From a virus, in UHGV virus genome UHGV-1575633: a stretch of DNA of 12,108 nt. The stretch is one strand, 5' to 3'. The translations under genes and the position numbers were made by a program. This document shows positions 454 to 5,774 of this stretch, piece after piece. Each line of letters begins with the position of its first letter. Position 1 is the first letter of the stretch. The notes below the pieces were generated by a model. The model was given only the letters and a program-made list of their open reading frames with translations. It had not been told where the DNA came from and did no database searches.

Positions 454-887
454 GCAGAGTAACCGCGATTATCTCCGCTCTGATTATCTGCATCATCGTC
501 TGCCTGTCATGGGCTGTTAATCATTACCGTGATAACGCCATCGCCTATAAAGAGCAGCGCGATAAGGCCACATCCACAATCGCTGACATGCAGAAGCGTC
601 AACGTGATGTAGCAGAACTCGACGCCAGATACACAAAGGAGCTTGCTGATGCTAACGCGACTATCGAAAGTCTCCGTGCTGATGTTTCTGCTGGTCGTAA
701 GCGCCTGCAAGTCTCCGCCACCTGTGCAAAGTCAACGGCCGGAGCCAGCAGCATGGGCGATGGAGAAAGCCCAAGACTTACAGCAGATGCTGAACTCAAT
801 TATTACCGTCTCCGAAGTGGAATCGACAGGATAACCGCGCAGGTTAACTACCTGCAGGAATACATCAGGACGCAATGCCTTCGATGA
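450..887 (+). CDS. Rz: Rz i-spanin (inner-membrane spanin subunit)
   Basis: ATG overlaps the R stop (ATGA). N-terminal TM segment ([20 protein letters not shown]) followed by a charged, helical periplasmic domain; N-terminus almost identical to lambda Rz as recalled. Confidence 0.9.
649..834 (+). CDS. Rz1: Rz1 o-spanin (outer-membrane lipoprotein) embedded in the +1 frame of Rz
   Basis: Entirely inside Rz in another frame. AAGGAG at 636-641 sits 7 nt before ATG 649. Signal peptide ends in lipobox-like VSAC, followed by proline-rich mature region ([16 protein letters not shown]), as in lambda Rz1. The track's TTG start at 643 is less likely. Confidence 0.8.
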
Positions 888-1062
888 TAGCGATAATTTT
901 ACTCATCATCCTTCACATCTGGCTCTGTAGACAGGGTGGTGATCACTTCTGGAGTGAATCCAGATTAAACATCTCATTGCTGATGCTTGATATTGAGCAT
1001 CTGGCGCGCGGTAAGGGGCTGCGTTGAGATAAGAGCCAGATCATTACAAATACCAGGATTTA

Positions 1063-1086
1063 GCCTCGCATTTGCGGGGCTTTTTT
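1063..1086 (+). terminator. Candidate rho-independent terminator downstream of Rz
   Basis: 7-bp GC-rich stem (1063-1069 pairs with 1074-1080, one G-U wobble), 4-nt loop, then six T at 1081-1086. Confidence 0.5.
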
Positions 1087-1232
1087 ACATCTGCAGTAAA
1101 CCGCGCATCGCAGCGCGTAACAATCCCGAGTCTTTCAGAAAGCTGAGCCTGAGAATTGCCGTATATGGTGGCGACCATCTCGGGGACGGCTTTTCTGTGC
1201 GAACAGGCTCATCTTTCTAAAAGGTAAACGCT

Positions 1233-1718
1233 ATGAATAACTTTGTTGAAATTACCTCAAGAATTGGTCGCATGTACCAAGATTTTCTTATAAGTGGAAA
1301 GGGGTCTGGCGACATCATAGAGGAAATTGACAAGCTAAGTGCAGAGCTGAGAAGGAATGGGTGTGTTAATTCTATCTTTTTTGAAACTTTGCTAAAGCAA
1401 GGCTTCATGTTTGACATGATTAATTACAACAAAGTCGCACCCAGTGCTTCGCAAAAATCATATGTGTACGTTCTGCATGCTGAAGATAGTGGGCTAACAA
1501 AAATAGGGTTTAGTCGCAGGGTTAATAAACGAATTTCAGAGATATCTCGCATGAGTGGTGGGAAGCTAAATCTAATTGCAAAGATTCCGGCCGATAGAGA
1601 GCTTGAAACCAAATTGCACCAAAAATATTACAACTATAGGTCGCACGGGGAGTGGTTTAGTCTCAATCGTTGTCATTTGAAAGAGCTAAAAGAAATGCCT
1701 GGTAACGAACTGAAATAA
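1233..1718 (+). CDS. Moron: T5orf172 / MUG113-type (divergent GIY-YIG-like) domain protein with ~75-aa N-terminal extension of unknown function
   Basis: 161-aa ORF with AAGG RBS 8 nt upstream. Residues 77-145 carry T5orf172-like motifs: YVYVL, KIGFS-RR, ELE-KLH, GEWF. Visibly more AT-rich than flanks (about 40% vs about 50% by eye) and uses AGA/AGG Arg codons rarely seen in the neighbouring phage genes. Confidence 0.7.
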   Translation: MNNFVEITSRIGRMYQDFLISGKGSGDIIEEIDKLSAELRRNGCVNSIFFETLLKQGFMFDMINYNKVAPSASQKSYVYVLHAEDSGLTKIGFSRRVNKRISEISRMSGGKLNLIAKIPADRELETKLHQKYYNYRSHGEWFSLNRCHLKELKEMPGNELK

Positions 1719-1918
1719 TCCCCGGACTCACTAATTAACAGCAGTACAGCGAAACAACCCAAGCCAGAAAGTGGGGAAATAACACTGGCAGCCACTGAAA
1801 GATGAACCTCCTGCCTTATGGCAAAAAAGATTCTTTGTGGTGGCGGACTGATGGAAAGACATCGGTTATTGCAGAGGCCATTCAATGAGTGGTCTCGACA
1901 ATGGCTTATACCCTACAC

Positions 1919-1944
1919 GGGATAACTTAACTGATATCCCTTTT
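1919..1944 (+). terminator. Weak hairpin plus T-tract, possible terminator of the moron transcript
   Basis: gggata (1919-1924) / tatccc (1935-1940) inverted repeat with 10-nt loop, then TTTT 1941-1944. Short AU-containing stem and large loop make this marginal. Confidence 0.25.
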
Positions 1945-1965
1945 AACGGATAAACGGAGCCAACA

Positions 1966-2208
1966 ATGGCAGAGATTATTCCCATGACTGAAGAACAGAA
2001 ATTCCAGTTAGAGATTTACAAACTGGTCATGAACCAGAACGCAGCCGCAGAAGAAGCATTTCAATTCATTGGCACTGACGAGCTGAAGCTTGAGCTATTT
2101 AAAATTCACTTCCAGTCAGGCGGCGCTAATTCAGATATCACGACCCGCACTATCGAAGCGGTGCGTAAATCGAAGGAAGCGTTAGACCTGTTCACTACCG
2201 GAGCATAA
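1966..2208 (+). CDS. Hypothetical small phage protein immediately upstream of small terminase
   Basis: 80-aa ORF with GGAG RBS (1957-1960), ending 2 nt before the terS ATG. No motif recognised. Confidence 0.55.
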   Translation: MAEIIPMTEEQKFQLEIYKLVMNQNAAAEEAFQFIGTDELKLELFKIHFQSGGANSDITTRTIEAVRKSKEALDLFTTGA

Positions 2209-2210
2209 AC

Positions 2211-2651
2211 ATGGCGCGCCCAACGAAGTATCAAGAGGCGTATGCCGAACAGGCACGCAAACTGTGCTTGCTGGGCTACACCGATGCAGAACTTGCTGAT
2301 TTCTTTGAAGTCAGTGAGTCAACTATTAACAAGTGGAAGCTTGATTATCCTAAGTTTTCGGAGTCCATAAAAAAGGGTAAGGCCGTCGCTGATGCAGAAG
2401 TTAGTGATCGTCTTTATCAACGCGCTATGGGCTTCGTGGCTCCAGACATCGATATTCGTGTTATTGAAAACAGAATTGTCGAAACTCCGCTTGAGAAGTA
2501 TTACCCGCCTGATACAACCGCCGCCATCTTCTGGCTTAAGAACCGACAGAAGGATAAATGGCGCGATAAGGTTGATCACGAGCTAACAGGCAAAGACGGC
2601 GGCGCAATTCAGATTGAAACATCACCGATGAGCACTCTATTCGGAAAATGA
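2211..2651 (+). CDS. Terminase small subunit
   Basis: 146-aa ORF directly upstream of and overlapping terL (ATGA at 2648). N-terminal HTH-like segment (YTDAELADFFEVSESTINKWK) typical of small terminase DNA-binding domains. Confidence 0.75.
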   Translation: MARPTKYQEAYAEQARKLCLLGYTDAELADFFEVSESTINKWKLDYPKFSESIKKGKAVADAEVSDRLYQRAMGFVAPDIDIRVIENRIVETPLEKYYPPDTTAAIFWLKNRQKDKWRDKVDHELTGKDGGAIQIETSPMSTLFGK

Positions 2652-4063
2652 CCACGATTAATCCTATCTTTGAACCGTTCATTGAGGCGCATCGCTACAA
2701 AGTCGCCAAAGGCGGTCGAGGTAGCGGTAAGTCATGGGCAATTGCGAGGCTGCTTGTTGAAGCGGCGCGTCGGCAGCCAGTGCGTATTCTCTGCGCTCGT
2801 GAACTGCAAAACAGTATCAGCGATTCGGTAATCCGGCTGCTTGAAGACACCATAGAGCGTGAAGGGTATACGGCTGAGTTTGAAATTCAGCGTTCCATGA
2901 TTCGTCATCTCGGAACGAATGCTGAGTTCATGTTCTACGGCATCAAAAACAACCCGACGAAGATTAAATCGCTCGAAGGCATTGATATCTGCTGGGTGGA
3001 AGAAGCGGAAGCGGTAACGAAGGAATCATGGGATATCCTGATACCAACCATCCGTAAGCCGTTCTCCGAAATATGGGTGAGCTTCAACCCTAAGAACATC
3101 CTCGACGATACCTATCAACGATTCGTTGTAAATCCTCCCGATGATATTTGTCTGCTGACGGTGAACTACACCGACAACCCGCACTTTCCTGAAGTTCTCC
3201 GTCTGGAGATGGAAGAGTGCAAACGCAGAAATCCGACACTGTATCGTCACATCTGGCTTGGTGAGCCAGTAAGCGCAAGTGATATGGCAATCATCAAACG
3301 TGAATGGCTTGAAGCTGCAACCGATGCGCACAAGAAACTCGGATGGAAAGCGAAAGGCGCTGTTGTTTCTGCGCATGACCCATCAGATACAGGGCCAGAT
3401 GCTAAAGGTTACGCATCGCGTCACGGTTCGGTAGTTAAGCGCATTGCCAAAGGTCTGCTGATGGATATCAACGAGGGTGCTGACTGGGCTACTTCGCTGG
3501 CGATTGAAGACGGCGCTGACCACTACCTGTGGGATGGTGATGGTGTTGGTGCGGGGCTGCGCAGACAGACAACGGAAGCATTCTCCGGTAAGAAAATCAC
3601 CGCCACGATGTTTAAGGGCAGCGAATCGCCATTCGATGAAGATGCACCGTATCAGGCCGGAGCATGGGCTGATGAAGTCGTACAGGGCGACAACGTTCGC
3701 ACTATTGGCGATGTGTTCCGCAATAAGCGAGCGCAATTCTATTACGCGCTGGCTGACAGGCTGTATCTGACATATCGGGCGGTTGTCCACGGTGAGTATG
3801 CAGACCCCGACGACATGCTGAGTTTCGACAAAGAAGCGATAGGCGAGAAGATGCTGGAGAAGCTGTTTGCAGAACTGACGCAGATTCAGCGCAAATTCAA
3901 TAATAACGGGAAGCTGGAGCTTATGACTAAGGTCGAAATGAAGCAGAAGCTCGGTATTCCATCTCCTAACCTGGCTGATGCGCTGATGATGTGTATGCAT
4001 TGCCCGGAGTCGGCTGCGCAACCCGACTATTCCAGTTACTCAATTCCTTGTGGTGTAGGTTGA
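2648..4063 (+). CDS. Terminase large subunit (Sf6/P22-type)
   Basis: 471 aa with Walker A P-loop KGGRGSGKS (residues 21-29) and Walker B-like ICWVEEAE; N-terminus closely resembles Sf6 gp2 as recalled. Confidence 0.9.
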   Translation: MTTINPIFEPFIEAHRYKVAKGGRGSGKSWAIARLLVEAARRQPVRILCARELQNSISDSVIRLLEDTIEREGYTAEFEIQRSMIRHLGTNAEFMFYGIKNNPTKIKSLEGIDICWVEEAEAVTKESWDILIPTIRKPFSEIWVSFNPKNILDDTYQRFVVNPPDDICLLTVNYTDNPHFPEVLRLEMEECKRRNPTLYRHIWLGEPVSASDMAIIKREWLEAATDAHKKLGWKAKGAVVSAHDPSDTGPDAKGYASRHGSVVKRIAKGLLMDINEGADWATSLAIEDGADHYLWDGDGVGAGLRRQTTEAFSGKKITATMFKGSESPFDEDAPYQAGAWADEVVQGDNVRTIGDVFRNKRAQFYYALADRLYLTYRAVVHGEYADPDDMLSFDKEAIGEKMLEKLFAELTQIQRKFNNNGKLELMTKVEMKQKLGIPSPNLADALMMCMHCPESAAQPDYSSYSIPCGVG

Positions 4064-4064
4064 T

Positions 4065-5774
4065 ATGGCAGAAAAAAAGATGACTGACTGGCATCGCAAG
4101 GTGCTGTGCAACTTTGATAATGCCTGGTCAGCAACGCAGGATATGCGTAAGCAGATTATTGAGGCTCAACGTTTCGTCCGGGTATCCGGCGCACAGTGGG
4201 AAGGCAGCACAAACGCTGGTTACTCATTTGATGAAGGCAGGTTTGAGCATTATCCGCGCTTTGAACTGAATAAGATTGCCCGTGAATGTGATCGCATCAT
4301 TGGCGAGTATCGACAGAATCGCATCAGCGTTAAATTCAGGCCGAAGGACGATAAGGCATCGGAAGCGTTAGCCGAAAAGATGAACGGCAAATTCCGCGCT
4401 GACTATCAGGAAACATCAGGTGGTGAAGCGTGTGATAACGCATTTGATGATGCTGTAACGGGCGGGTTCGGTTGTTTCCGCATGTGTGCTGATTACGAAG
4501 ATGAAATGGATCCGAGTAACGAGCAGCGACGCATCAGTCTTCTTCCTGTTTACGACCCGGCGACATGCGTCTTCTTCGATCAGGACAGCAAACAATATGA
4601 CCGCTCTGATGCTATGTGGGCTATGGAAATGTTCTCCATGACGCCTAAAGCGTTCGAGGCTGAATACCCTGATTCCATTGCGGCAAGCCTTTCTCGGGAT
4701 GACACTGGTACTCAGTATGACTGGTCAACGCCTGACGCCATCTATGTTGGACGTTACTACGAAGTTCGCATAGAGAAGGTGAAGCTCACGGCGTGGCGCA
4801 ACCCTGTTAGCGGAGAAACGGCAATCTATGATGAAGAGCAAATCAAAGATATTGTCGACGAGCTGACCGATGGTGCATTCGAACTGATTGGCGAGCGAAC
4901 GGTGAAGAAACGCCGCGTTTATTGCGGCCTTCTGTCTGGCGCTGAATGGCTGGAAGAACCGAAGCGTATTCCGGGCGAACATATTCCTCTCATCCCGGTA
5001 TATGGGCGTCGCTCATTTGTTGATAATCAGGAACGAATCGAAGGCCACGCAGCAAAAGCGATGGATGCACAGCGTCTTGAGAACCTGATGGTTTCCATGA
5101 TTGCAGATAACGCTACTCAGGCGGGCGGTGATGGCATTCCTATCGTGGATGTTGATTTCATTCCCGGTCCATTAATGAATCACTGGGCAGAGAGGAATAA
5201 GAAAAGACCTGCAGTTCTTCCCATGACCAGCAAGAAGGACAAAAACGGAACAGTCATTTCAGAAGCTCAGGTTGCTGGCTGGACACCTCCGACACAAATG
5301 CCTCCTGCTCTTGCCGGGCTATTGCAGTACACCGGAACGGCTATTCAGCAAATTACAGGTGCGTCGCAGCTTGAGAACATGCCGAGCAACGTCGCTACTG
5401 ATACCGTTGATAGCATTTTTAACCGGATGGACACGCAGTCCTATATCTACATGGACAACATGGCTAAATCTATGCGTCGCGCTGGCGTTGTGTGGCTTTC
5501 TATGGCGCGTGAAGTCTATGGCAGCGATACGCCGATGCGTATCGTTAATGAGGACGGCAGCGATGACGTGGCGCTGATGACTGGTGAAGTGGTTGACCGT
5601 CAGACAGGGCAGGTTATCGCGCTTAACGACCTTTCGCAGGGTAACTATGAAGTGACTGTCGATGTCGGTCAGTCGTTCGCTACTCGCCGTGATGCAACGG
5701 TTAAGTCGTTACTTTCCATGCTGGCACTTATCCCACCAGGAACGCCGAAGCTGCACAGATTGACTCTGACCTGA
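4065..5774 (+). CDS. Portal protein (P22 gp1-like), apparently C-terminally truncated (569 aa vs roughly 700+ aa in P22/Sf6)
   Basis: Collinear with P22 portal motifs as recalled (KRRRVY, GEHIPLIPVYG, PPGTPK), but the frame stops at 5772-5774 right after PPGTPK, where P22 continues into the C-terminal barrel. Confidence 0.8.
   Translation: MAEKKMTDWHRKVLCNFDNAWSATQDMRKQIIEAQRFVRVSGAQWEGSTNAGYSFDEGRFEHYPRFELNKIARECDRIIGEYRQNRISVKFRPKDDKASEALAEKMNGKFRADYQETSGGEACDNAFDDAVTGGFGCFRMCADYEDEMDPSNEQRRISLLPVYDPATCVFFDQDSKQYDRSDAMWAMEMFSMTPKAFEAEYPDSIAASLSRDDTGTQYDWSTPDAIYVGRYYEVRIEKVKLTAWRNPVSGETAIYDEEQIKDIVDELTDGAFELIGERTVKKRRVYCGLLSGAEWLEEPKRIPGEHIPLIPVYGRRSFVDNQERIEGHAAKAMDAQRLENLMVSMIADNATQAGGDGIPIVDVDFIPGPLMNHWAERNKKRPAVLPMTSKKDKNGTVISEAQVAGWTPPTQMPPALAGLLQYTGTAIQQITGASQLENMPSNVATDTVDSIFNRMDTQSYIYMDNMAKSMRRAGVVWLSMAREVYGSDTPMRIVNEDGSDDVALMTGEVVDRQTGQVIALNDLSQGNYEVTVDVGQSFATRRDATVKSLLSMLALIPPGTPKLHRLTLT

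What the first reader, a model, noticed from the sequence alone, without database searches (positions are those of the whole stretch)
1233..1718. AT-rich single-gene moron encoding a T5orf172 (GIY-YIG-like) domain protein between the lysis and packaging modules
This is the one gene in the window that is not part of the lysis or virion-assembly programme. It sits in a ~1.1 kb gap between Rz (end 887) and the packaging genes (from 1966), after a terminator and with its own RBS. Its base composition and AGA/AGG codon usage differ from the surrounding genes, which points to separate acquisition. Residues 77-145 carry T5orf172-family motifs (YVYVL, KIGFS-RR, ELE-KLH, GEWF), a divergent GIY-YIG nuclease-like fold. 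Such folds occur in homing endonucleases and in anti-phage defence proteins, so the gene is either a prophage-encoded defence or toxin gene or a free-standing selfish endonuclease. The lysis/terminase junction is a recognised moron hotspot in lambdoid phages.
Basis: partly seen in the sequence, partly recalled or inferred. Interest (0 to 1): 0.75.

Follow-up and report, generated by a model that had tools for sequence, protein, structure and literature searches.

The report
Swappable phage nuclease gene behind structured leader
The ORF is a real but already-annotated small GIY-YIG/T5orf172-type nuclease gene, one of several alternative genes in a fixed slot between the lysis and packaging genes of P22-like phages; more notable is that all of these genes share a conserved folded RNA leader that covers the ribosome-binding site.

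Summary
Observation confirmed. ORF 1233-1718 encodes 161 aa, passes Pfam MUG113/T5orf172 cut-offs, models as a GIY-YIG fold, and is AT-rich (38.9% vs 49.9% GC). It is epsilon34 gp68 / g341c gp64. It occurs in 58 of 5,426 complete E. coli genomes, where RefSeq already calls it "GIY-YIG nuclease family protein".

Interpretation partly supported. It is not an autonomous moron: no promoter or downstream terminator was found. It is one allele (about 9-12%) of an exchangeable late-operon slot. Relatives carry Rha, KilA-N, Ant-type or HNH genes there, with breakpoints at the start and stop codons.

All cargoes follow the same ~110-nt leader (1123-1235). This leader is a long hairpin that sequesters the Shine-Dalgarno, has covariation support, and is absent from Rfam.

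The N-terminal 68 aa form a three-helix domain homologous to HK620 HkbL. Distant relatives sit beside Arc/Bro-N/Rha/KilA-N genes.

Most likely it is a late-expressed, tightly throttled endonuclease used in conflicts between mobile elements. Self-driven homing is possible but unsupported, because Rha cargoes show the same "cargo younger than flanks" pattern. Prophage-expressed defence is unlikely.

The parts
875..1027 (+). Small conserved ORF (50 aa) overlapping the end of Rz; epsilon34 gp67 / Sf6 gp65 family, function unknown
   Evidence: phrog_11822 E=3.9e-38; no Pfam hit
1062..1087 (+). Intrinsic terminator-like hairpin plus T-run upstream of the leader
   Evidence: 8 pairs, 6 GC, TTTTTT tail; annotated as a rho-independent terminator in epsilon34; unrelated phages have different stems at this place that still pair
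1123..1235 (+). Conserved structured leader RNA. A long hairpin in which CUUUC (about 1131-1135) pairs with the Shine-Dalgarno AAAGG (about 1221-1225). The inner part (GCCGU...GACGGC followed by UUUUCUGUG) resembles an attenuator/terminator. It ends at the start codon.
   Evidence: Near-invariant in front of Rha, KilA-N, T5orf172 and HNH cargoes. MFE -48.8 kcal/mol, z=-2.0. CM R1 hit at 122.7 bits. 97.5% of cells paired and 20/33 pairs with double changes, against 3.8 in shuffles. No Rfam match.
1233..1718 (+). 161-aa protein (epsilon34 gp68 family; WP_001058931.1): HkbL-like N-domain plus T5orf172/MUG113 GIY-YIG-type nuclease domain
1239..1436 (+). N-terminal three-helix domain (aa 3-68), homologous to HK620 HkbL (phrog_875)
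   Evidence: BLASTP 33% identity, E=9e-11; reciprocal PHROG cross-hits; AF2 helices 3-21, 25-41, 47-68 at pLDDT about 90; only generic helical-bundle structural matches
1461..1694 (+). T5orf172/MUG113 domain (aa 77-154), beta-beta-alpha-beta-alpha-beta-alpha GIY-YIG-like fold; Y79, K90, G92, R100, E125, H129, E140 conserved
1719..1965 (+). Conserved non-coding spacer downstream of the cargo; right-hand homology arm of the slot. It contains a remnant similar to the N-terminus of ST64T orf118 (about 1817-1900).
   Evidence: Homology with CUS-3 resumes at 1716, with HK620 at 1729 and with Sf6 at 1738; epsilon34 misc_feature
1966..2208 (+). DUF2560 gene (HK620 hkbM family), constant right-hand neighbour of the slot
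   Evidence: PF10834 E=1.1e-43

Best explanation
The ORF is one allele of an exchangeable accessory cassette that sits after the lysis genes in the late operon of P22-like and other lambdoid phages.

Shown:
- The protein has an N-terminal three-helix HkbL-like domain and a C-terminal T5orf172-type GIY-YIG nuclease domain with its motif residues intact.
- The cassette is bounded to within a few bases by the start and stop codons.
- It shares a conserved, structured, SD-sequestering leader with alternative cargoes of the Bro-N network (Rha, KilA-N, P22_AR_N/ANT) and with HNH nucleases.
- It has no detectable promoter of its own.

Inferred:
- The gene is transcribed only when Q-antiterminated late transcription reads through the upstream terminator.
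- It is translated sparingly because the leader hairpin occludes the ribosome-binding site.
- It acts late in infection as a DNA endonuclease against competing DNA (co-infecting or resident related phages, or satellites). Targeting would come from its own HkbL-like domain or from a Rha/KilA-N-type DNA-binding partner.
- Spread between phages is by ordinary homologous recombination in the conserved leader and downstream spacer, as for the other cargoes.
For: - Family and fold.
- Exact ORF-for-ORF replacement: homology with CUS-3 (Rha) covers 1-1237 and 1716-2700; with HK620 (KilA-N) it ends at 1237 and resumes at 1729.
- Shared leader in front of every cargo type, with covariation support and the SD in the basal stem.
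- No promoter in 800-2300 and an upstream terminator.
- Slot frequency: the leader is in 653 E. coli genomes and the T5orf172 cargo in 58. In the IMG/VR sample, 14 of 114 leader-bearing contigs carry this protein type, 93 carry Rha/KilA-N and 1 carries HNH.
- Link to the Bro-N network: HkbL is the coupled partner of the KilA-N gene in HK620. The 35%-identity relatives lie among Arc, Bro-N, Rha, KilA-N+P63C and P22_AR_N genes, and one overlaps the stop codon of a Rha gene.
- Precedents: T5orf172 nucleases in phage-satellite conflict, such as Odn, whose activity needs the conserved Glu (PMC8263062); T5orf172 co-occurs with Bro-N/KilA-N domains (PMC8096241); SNIPE combines an adaptor with a GIY-YIG nuclease (PMC13190303).
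Against: - No nuclease activity, target or expression timing has been measured for this protein or any close homologue.
- The N-domain has no recognisable DNA-binding signature, and structure search gives only generic helical bundles.
- Stand-alone HkbL accompanies only one KilA-N type in the sample, not the Rha+ORF11CD3 cargoes, so a general adaptor role is unproven.
- The promoter scan covers sigma-70 consensus only.
- The alignment used for leader covariation was fitted to the model, and most double changes come from a few divergent copies.
Confidence: 0.45

Rival explanations
1. Free-standing homing endonuclease. The protein cuts the slot, or a neighbouring conserved sequence, in phages that lack it, and break repair copies the gene in, so it drives its own spread.
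For: - T5orf172 genes are regarded as putative HEGs, and 35% of their neighbourhoods contain a terminase gene (PMC10448857).
- Presence/absence polymorphism at a fixed site.
- At least 99.6% nucleotide identity between E. coli prophages and Salmonella phages, while the flanks are 96-98% identical.
- Low GC.
- HNH_3 endonucleases sit behind the same leader in other phages (L094, Dewey).
- One truncated copy, L083, as expected in the decay phase of a HEG life cycle.
Against: - The control fails: Rha cargoes of 172, 174 and 180 aa show the same 'cargo at least 99%, flanks 82-92%' pattern, and the same exact boundaries. Exchange therefore does not need a nuclease.
- 87% of surveyed T5orf172 HEGs carry Zn-finger DNA-binding domains (PMC10448857). 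This protein has none; only one Cys is conserved in the N-domain.
- More distant relatives are not at a homologous site. They sit inside antirepressor-type clusters.
Confidence: 0.25
2. Prophage-expressed anti-phage defence or toxin gene. The lysogen makes the nuclease, which attacks superinfecting phage DNA or kills the infected cell.
For: - Weak PADLOC hit to candidate PDC-S57, E=4e-4.
- In L136 the neighbouring gene is a superinfection-immunity protein.
- AT-rich accessory gene in a prophage.
Against: - No promoter between the terminator and the ATG.
- The gene lies inside the late operon, downstream of tR' and a second terminator.
- The SD is sequestered in the leader.
- The PADLOC score is far below a family-level match, and NCBIfam gives nothing.
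- The slot's other occupants are regulator/antirepressor-type proteins, not known defence genes.
Confidence: 0.1
3. Non-catalytic DNA-binding or regulatory protein. Here the T5orf172 domain acts only as a DNA-interaction module, functionally equivalent to the Rha/KilA-N proteins it replaces (for example antirepressor-like or regulatory).
For: - It occupies exactly the place of Rha/KilA-N regulators behind the same leader.
- T5orf172 was first proposed as a DNA-binding domain through its association with Bro-N/KilA-N (PMC8096241).
- Domestication of HEG parts into a repressor is documented for CapR (PMC8096241).
Against: - The nuclease motif residues (Y79, R100, E125, E140, H129) are invariant or nearly so across 67 homologues down to about 25-30% identity, which argues for retained catalysis.
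- CapR derives from the DNA-binding part of a HEG, not from the T5orf172 domain.
Confidence: 0.1

Closest known systems
Salmonella phage epsilon34 gp68 / g341c gp64 / E. coli WP_001058931.1 ('GIY-YIG nuclease family protein')
   Same: Same gene: 99.6-100% nucleotide identity, same slot, same leader.
   Different: Nothing substantive. The packaging genes downstream differ (Sf6/CUS-3-type terminase here, other types in epsilon34, E. coli W and 13KWH46). None of these copies has been characterised; the epsilon34 genome paper does not discuss the gene.
T5orf172-family putative homing endonucleases of ICP1, T5-like and other phages (Barth, Dunham & Seed 2023) and the anti-satellite nuclease Odn (ICP1 Gp88)
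   Same: C-terminal T5orf172 GIY-YIG-type domain preceded by an N-terminal targeting region; located near terminase genes; variable presence among related phages.
   Different: Those proteins carry CapR/DUF723/DUF4397 Zn-finger or RepA_N DNA-binding domains. This one has a 68-aa three-helix HkbL-like domain. It is much smaller, at 161 aa. Its mobility pattern cannot be told apart from that of non-nuclease cargoes.
HK620 hkbK-hkbL, and P22/CUS-3 rha (orf201), at the same genome position
   Same: Same slot, same leader, same start-codon position. HkbL is homologous to the N-domain. The Rha product is known to be harmful to phage growth without IHF (as summarised in PMC4936722), which fits a tightly throttled slot.
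   Different: Those cargoes are Phage_pRha or KilA-N DNA-binding domains fused to ORF11CD3, with no nuclease domain.
I-TevI / SLX1 / UvrC-N GIY-YIG catalytic domains
   Different: The second Tyr is Lys (KIG instead of YIG), as is typical of T5orf172. Sequence similarity is marginal (E=0.36-1 against PDB). The Glu correspondence (E125 or E140) is not resolved.
SD-sequestering leaders that throttle phage homing-endonuclease genes, and RNase III-processed phage leaders such as lambda N (from general knowledge, not tested here)
   Same: A long imperfect hairpin immediately 5' of the start codon, with the SD in the stem.
   Different: Here a single leader sequence is shared by unrelated cargo genes across many lambdoid phages. 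No Rfam family matches, and the trigger that opens it is unknown.

Membership tests
T5orf172 (PF10544) / MUG113 (PF13455), GIY-YIG clan | Profile HMM score above Pfam gathering threshold | tested here: met
   MUG113 50.1 bits (cut-off 22.3); T5orf172 39.2 bits (cut-off 20)
T5orf172 (PF10544) / MUG113 (PF13455), GIY-YIG clan | GIY-YIG alpha/beta fold (three-stranded sheet flanked by helices) | tested here: met
T5orf172 (PF10544) / MUG113 (PF13455), GIY-YIG clan | Catalytic motif residues conserved (Tyr in beta-1, Arg in alpha-1, metal-binding Glu) | tested here: met
   Y79, R100 and E125 are invariant and E140 is at least 90% conserved in 67 homologues. Y79=I-TevI Y6 and R100=R27. Which Glu equals I-TevI E75 is unresolved.
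T5orf172 (PF10544) / MUG113 (PF13455), GIY-YIG clan | Metal-dependent DNA cleavage | not testable with these tools
   Needs biochemistry
Free-standing homing endonuclease gene | Presence/absence polymorphism at one site among otherwise related genomes | tested here: met
   58 carriers among 653 E. coli genomes with the full slot leader; 3 of about 60 phage records with the leader
Free-standing homing endonuclease gene | Dedicated sequence-specific DNA-binding domain next to the nuclease domain | tested here: inconclusive
Free-standing homing endonuclease gene | Nuclease-specific over-transmission or co-conversion signature (gene younger than flanks, beyond what neighbouring non-nuclease alleles show) | tested here: not met
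   The gene is 99.8-100% identical against 96-98% for the flanks, but Rha cargoes show the same or a stronger contrast
Free-standing homing endonuclease gene | Cleaves the gene-less allele near the insertion site | not testable with these tools
   Needs in vitro cleavage assays or phage crosses
Moron (autonomously expressed insert in a phage operon) | Absent from, or replaced in, related genomes, with deviant base composition | tested here: met
Moron (autonomously expressed insert in a phage operon) | Own promoter upstream and own terminator downstream | tested here: not met
   0 sigma-70-like sites in 800-2300 (2.6 expected by chance). The only + strand terminator lies upstream of the gene. 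The upstream sequence is a leader shared with the alternative cargoes.
Known or candidate anti-phage defence systems (PADLOC-DB) | Significant match to a defence-protein model | tested here: not met
   Best hit PDC-S57 at 18 bits, E=4e-4, over the nuclease motif only
Bro-N network accessory cassette (Rha / KilA-N / Ant-type genes) | Occupies the same slot and leader as, or is adjacent to, Bro-N-network genes | tested here: met
   network as defined in PMC10111431
Bro-N network accessory cassette (Rha / KilA-N / Ant-type genes) | [quoted passage not shown] | tested here: not met
   Only MUG113/T5orf172 are detected. The link is through HkbL homology and T5orf172's reported co-occurrence with Bro-N/KilA-N.

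The most novel reading that the evidence does not exclude
The ~110-nt leader is an undescribed cis-regulatory RNA that works as a plug-and-play expression platform for harmful 'conflict' genes in lambdoid late operons. It combines a terminator-like core with an SD-sequestering stem that some unknown trigger, such as RNase III, opens. The HkbL-like domain is an adaptor that docks the T5orf172 nuclease onto Rha/KilA-N-type DNA-binding proteins, its own phage's or a rival's, so the nuclease cuts wherever those proteins bind. A further, less likely variant is that the hairpin also acts at the DNA level as the recombination boundary of the cassettes, since the left breakpoint lies within 10 nt of its 3' base.
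Probability: 0.15. Interest if true: 0.7.

Novelty: new member of a known kind. Interest (0 to 1): 0.4.

Why it matters
The gene itself adds little. It is an uncharacterised but already catalogued T5orf172/GIY-YIG protein, sequenced in epsilon34 in 2008.

The context matters more. About one in eight complete E. coli genomes (653 of 5,426) carries a late-operon slot whose unrelated cargoes all share one structured, SD-occluding leader that is not in Rfam. The cargoes are Rha, KilA-N, Ant-type, HNH and T5orf172 genes. If the leader is a riboregulator, it would explain how phages tolerate and time these toxic accessory genes. It would also give a handle for finding new conflict genes: whatever follows the leader is a candidate.

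The HkbL-T5orf172 architecture, together with its consistent association with antirepressor-type genes, suggests a testable link between the poorly understood Bro-N network and nuclease effectors.

Tried and rejected
- An exhaustive phmmer search of 1.8 billion representatives with the N-domain found only its own cluster and one weak repeat-protein hit. The domain is narrow, or too short for single-sequence search.
- tblastn with the N-domain did not recover hkbL, although BLASTP and reciprocal PHROG profiles do. The homology therefore rests on those results.
- NCBIfam gave no hit. PADLOC gave only an 18-bit hit. Rfam at E<=1 returned only a chance hit on the terminator.
- The PDB sequence search gave only marginal GIY-YIG hits, E=0.36-1.
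- No IHF consensus site occurs in 888-1240, so there is no support for IHF acting on this leader.
- 'Gene younger than flanks' was considered as evidence for homing and rejected after the Rha control.
- Conserved coding in the leader, including the minus-strand ORFs annotated in SPN3UB and Tbat2_3 and window ORF 1178-1044, was rejected because 1-nt indels break both frames.
- The 'HNH homing endonuclease' annotated in phiv205-1 is not in the slot; it sits where the small terminase gene lies here.
- The primary rha paper, Henthorn & Friedman 1995 (PMC177009), is not held.
- P0014 and P0005 were treated as chimeric gene calls and left out of the alignments.

Full report
**1.
- The window has an ATG-initiated ORF at 1233-1718 (+) encoding 161 aa. 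It lies in the 1.08-kb interval between Rz (ends 887) and the next substantial genes.
- A terminator-like hairpin with a T-run lies at 1062-1087. The same feature is annotated as a rho-independent terminator in epsilon34.
- An AAGG Shine-Dalgarno precedes the ATG by 7 nt.
- Gene GC is 38.9%, against 49.9% for the window and 50-51% for R, Rz and TerL. Six of its 11 Arg codons are AGA/AGG, against 4 of 28 in TerL.
- Two corrections. A conserved 50-aa ORF (875-1027, phrog_11822) lies in the "gap". The gene at 1966 is a DUF2560 protein; the small terminase starts at 2211.

**2. Family and fold.**
- Pfam gives MUG113 (E=4.2e-13) and T5orf172 (E=1.1e-9) over aa 77-154, both well above their curated cut-offs.
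- PHROGs places the whole protein in phrog_4284, function unknown. NCBIfam has no model for it. PADLOC gives only an 18-bit hit to a candidate system.
- In an alignment of 67 homologues down to about 25-30% identity, Y79, K90-I91-G92, R100, E125, G139, W141 and F142 are invariant. H129, R136, H138 and E140 are nearly so.
- AlphaFold2 models the full protein at pLDDT 91.5. It shows an N-terminal three-helix domain (helices 3-21, 25-41, 47-68) and a beta-beta-alpha-beta-alpha-beta-alpha C-domain.
- Searching with the whole model was uninformative.
- Weak profile alignments put Y79, K90, G92 and R100 in register with I-TevI Y6, Y17, G19 and R27. Which conserved Glu (E125 or E140) corresponds to the catalytic E75 is unresolved.
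- Membership in the T5orf172/GIY-YIG family is therefore established at the sequence and fold level. Activity is untested.

**3. The gene is already known and annotated.**
- The window is a P22-like (Lederbergvirus-type) phage or prophage.
- The gene is 99.6-99.8% identical to epsilon34 gene 68, g341c gene 64 and a gene of Salmonella phage NM-3.
- It is at least 99% identical in 57 of the 58 complete E. coli genomes (of 5,426) that carry it. It is always chromosomal, single-copy and annotated "GIY-YIG nuclease family protein".
- The epsilon34 genome paper does not discuss it.

**4. The gene is one allele of a cassette slot, not an autonomous moron.**
- Pairwise comparison shows exact ORF-for-ORF replacement. 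Homology with CUS-3, which has a Rha gene there, runs from 1 to 1237 (start codon plus 2 nt) and resumes at 1716 (the stop codon). With HK620, which has KilA-N hkbK plus hkbL, it ends at 1237 and resumes at 1729.
- No sigma-70-like promoter is found anywhere in 800-2300, and no + strand terminator follows the gene.
- The gene keeps the same position in prophages with different terminase genes and in an Erwinia relative at 60% identity.
- The sequence 1040-1237 is present at 80% coverage or more in 653 E. coli genomes, so the T5orf172 cargo occupies about 9% of slots.
- In a sample of 114 IMG/VR contigs with the leader:
  - 93 carry Rha/KilA-N-type cargo;
  - 14 carry this protein type: the 161-aa form, a 162-aa subfamily only 33% identical, and one truncated copy;
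  - 7 carry other Rha- or ANT-type proteins;
  - one carries an HNH_3 endonuclease.
- The Pfam content of the cargoes is Phage_pRha+ORF11CD3, KilA-N+ORF11CD3, KilA-N+P63C, P22_AR_N+ORF11CD3 and ANT. [quoted passage not shown] T5orf172 is known to co-occur with that network (PMC8096241).

**5. The shared leader is a structured RNA.**
- Upstream of the terminator the compared phages are unrelated, and the terminator stems differ while still pairing. The roughly 150 nt from the terminator to the ATG are nearly invariant whatever the cargo.
- 1-nt indels in this stretch exclude a conserved ORF on either strand.
- The RNA folds into a long hairpin with MFE -48.8 kcal/mol and z=-2.0. Its basal stem pairs CUUUC with the Shine-Dalgarno AAAGG. 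Its core (GCCGU...GACGGC followed by UUUUCUGUG) resembles an intrinsic terminator.
- A covariance model built from 24 variants also found more divergent second copies in some contigs. Each of these ends in register at the ATG of another cargo.
- The model also matches in front of the Erwinia T5orf172 gene and the Dewey HNH gene.
- On the 60-sequence model alignment:
  - 97.5% of cells form pairs, against 43-52% when partners are slid;
  - 20 of 33 pairs show changes on both sides, against 3.8 ± 1.4 in shuffles and 3-6 when slid;
  - several pairs alternate with G·U on the + strand.
- Caveats: the alignment was fitted to the model, the 5' arm of the main stem was fixed by my search pattern, and most double changes come from a few divergent copies.
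- Rfam has no match.
- Inference: the gene is transcribed by Q-antiterminated late transcription and translated at a low, gated level.
- That fits cargoes that are harmful when over-expressed. P22/phi80 Rha blocks phage growth in IHF-deficient hosts (summarised in PMC4936722). I found no IHF consensus in the leader.

**6. The N-terminal domain links the protein to the same network.**
- Residues 5-59 are 33% identical (E=9e-11) to HK620 HkbL. HkbL is an 85-aa protein whose gene overlaps the stop codon of the KilA-N gene in the same slot.
- The two PHROG families cross-hit reciprocally.
- Full-length relatives at 35% identity are not in the lysis-terminase slot. They lie in accessory clusters between the tail-chaperone and tape-measure genes of siphoviruses, among Arc/Arc repressors, Bro-N, Phage_pRha, KilA-N+P63C and P22_AR_N genes. 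In one of them the gene overlaps the stop codon of a Rha gene.
- The protein thus either replaces a Rha/KilA-N gene or is coupled to one.
- Stand-alone HkbL was seen only with the HK620-type KilA-N cargo, so a general adaptor role is a hypothesis and not a result.

**7. Homing was tested and is not specifically supported.**
- Among carriers the gene is 99.8-100% identical, while R/Rz are about 96.3% and DUF2560 97-98%. That looks like recent lateral spread.
- The same analysis on Rha cargoes gives the same or a stronger contrast: cargo 99.0-99.8%, flanks 82-92%.
- Cassette exchange through the conserved leader and downstream spacer is therefore a property of the slot, not of the nuclease.
- The protein lacks the Zn-finger DNA-binding domains present in 87% of surveyed T5orf172 HEGs (PMC10448857).
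- Homing remains possible: a nuclease domain, patchy distribution, HNH genes in the same slot and one decayed copy all fit. It is not favoured.

**8. Verdict.**
- The most likely account is a late-expressed, tightly throttled T5orf172/GIY-YIG endonuclease cassette of the Bro-N-network slot, acting on competing DNA (0.45).
- Rivals: self-propagating homing endonuclease (0.25); prophage-expressed defence or toxin (0.1); non-catalytic regulator (0.1).
- The gene is a new member of a known kind and of modest interest. The shared structured leader and the HkbL-T5orf172 link to antirepressor-type genes are the parts worth following up.

Noticed in passing
window 1123-1235 (+); also L134 3893-4002, L009 1267-1373, L010 1183-1293 and 2549-2660: A conserved ~110-nt structured leader lies in front of Rha, KilA-N, Ant-type, HNH and T5orf172 genes in many lambdoid phages. 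It forms an SD-sequestering hairpin with covariation support, has no Rfam family, and is present in 653 of 5,426 E. coli genomes.
   Followed up: yes
L010 1183-1293; L014 8533-8625; L045 11112-11219 (-); L080 341-436 (-): Some phages carry a second, much more divergent copy of the leader (39-56 bits). Each ends in register at the ATG of another cargo: P22_AR_N+ORF11CD3, a 141-aa unknown, a 54-aa ORF, and a KilA-N-like protein. The element is therefore reused at more than one place per genome.
   Followed up: partly
L063 3807-3916: A leader truncated after its 5' half is joined directly to sequence resembling window ~1740-1790. This looks like a cargo-less or deleted allele of the slot.
   Followed up: no
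L083 (95-aa ORF behind the leader): A truncated copy of the 162-aa T5orf172 subfamily, with the frame lost just after the VYVL strand. This suggests occasional decay of the nuclease cargo.
   Followed up: no
L009 (phage Dewey) 1267-1922, and L094: An HNH_3 endonuclease gene sits directly behind a copy of the leader. In Dewey it lies upstream of a KilA-N + HkbL pair that keeps a remnant of a second leader (window 1203-1237 matches L009 1906-1941).
   Followed up: partly
L007 (phiv205-1) 2630-3070, equivalent to window 2211-2651: The gene annotated 'HNH homing endonuclease' in phiv205-1, 611R6 and 683R2 occupies the position and length of the small terminase subunit of CUS-3 and this window. This is probably an annotation transfer error; I did not check it by HMM.
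   Followed up: no
window 1044-1178 (-); SPN3UB_0070; Tbat2_3 UIW10380.1: Small minus-strand ORFs are annotated, or can be called, inside the leader. Other annotations extend the cargo ORF 5'-wards into the leader (CUS-3, Chronis, Tbat2_3, P0010). Frame-breaking 1-nt indels among relatives indicate all of these are spurious.
   Followed up: yes
window 1966-2208: A DUF2560 gene (HK620 hkbM family) is the constant right-hand neighbour of the slot in P22-like phages, even where the terminase genes differ. Its function is unknown.
   Followed up: no
L008 (phage Huey) 1409-1909 and 2144-2524; L004 (Sf6) 1824-2204: In Huey the slot region holds two genes annotated 'anti-CRISPR protein' (phrog_872 and phrog_322). 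The second is the Sf6 gp66 family. These phages lack the leader, with homology ending near window 1050-1087.
   Followed up: no
P0014, P0005 (metagenome gene calls): Predicted fusions of Rz with the C-terminus of this protein, and of its N-part with DUF2560. These are either deletions in the slot or assembly/gene-calling artefacts.
   Followed up: no
L005 (E. coli 13KWH46) 4041-4196: That prophage carries tRNA-Asn and tRNA-Thr genes between Q and the holin gene, and two extra small ORFs between the T5orf172 gene and DUF2560.
   Followed up: no
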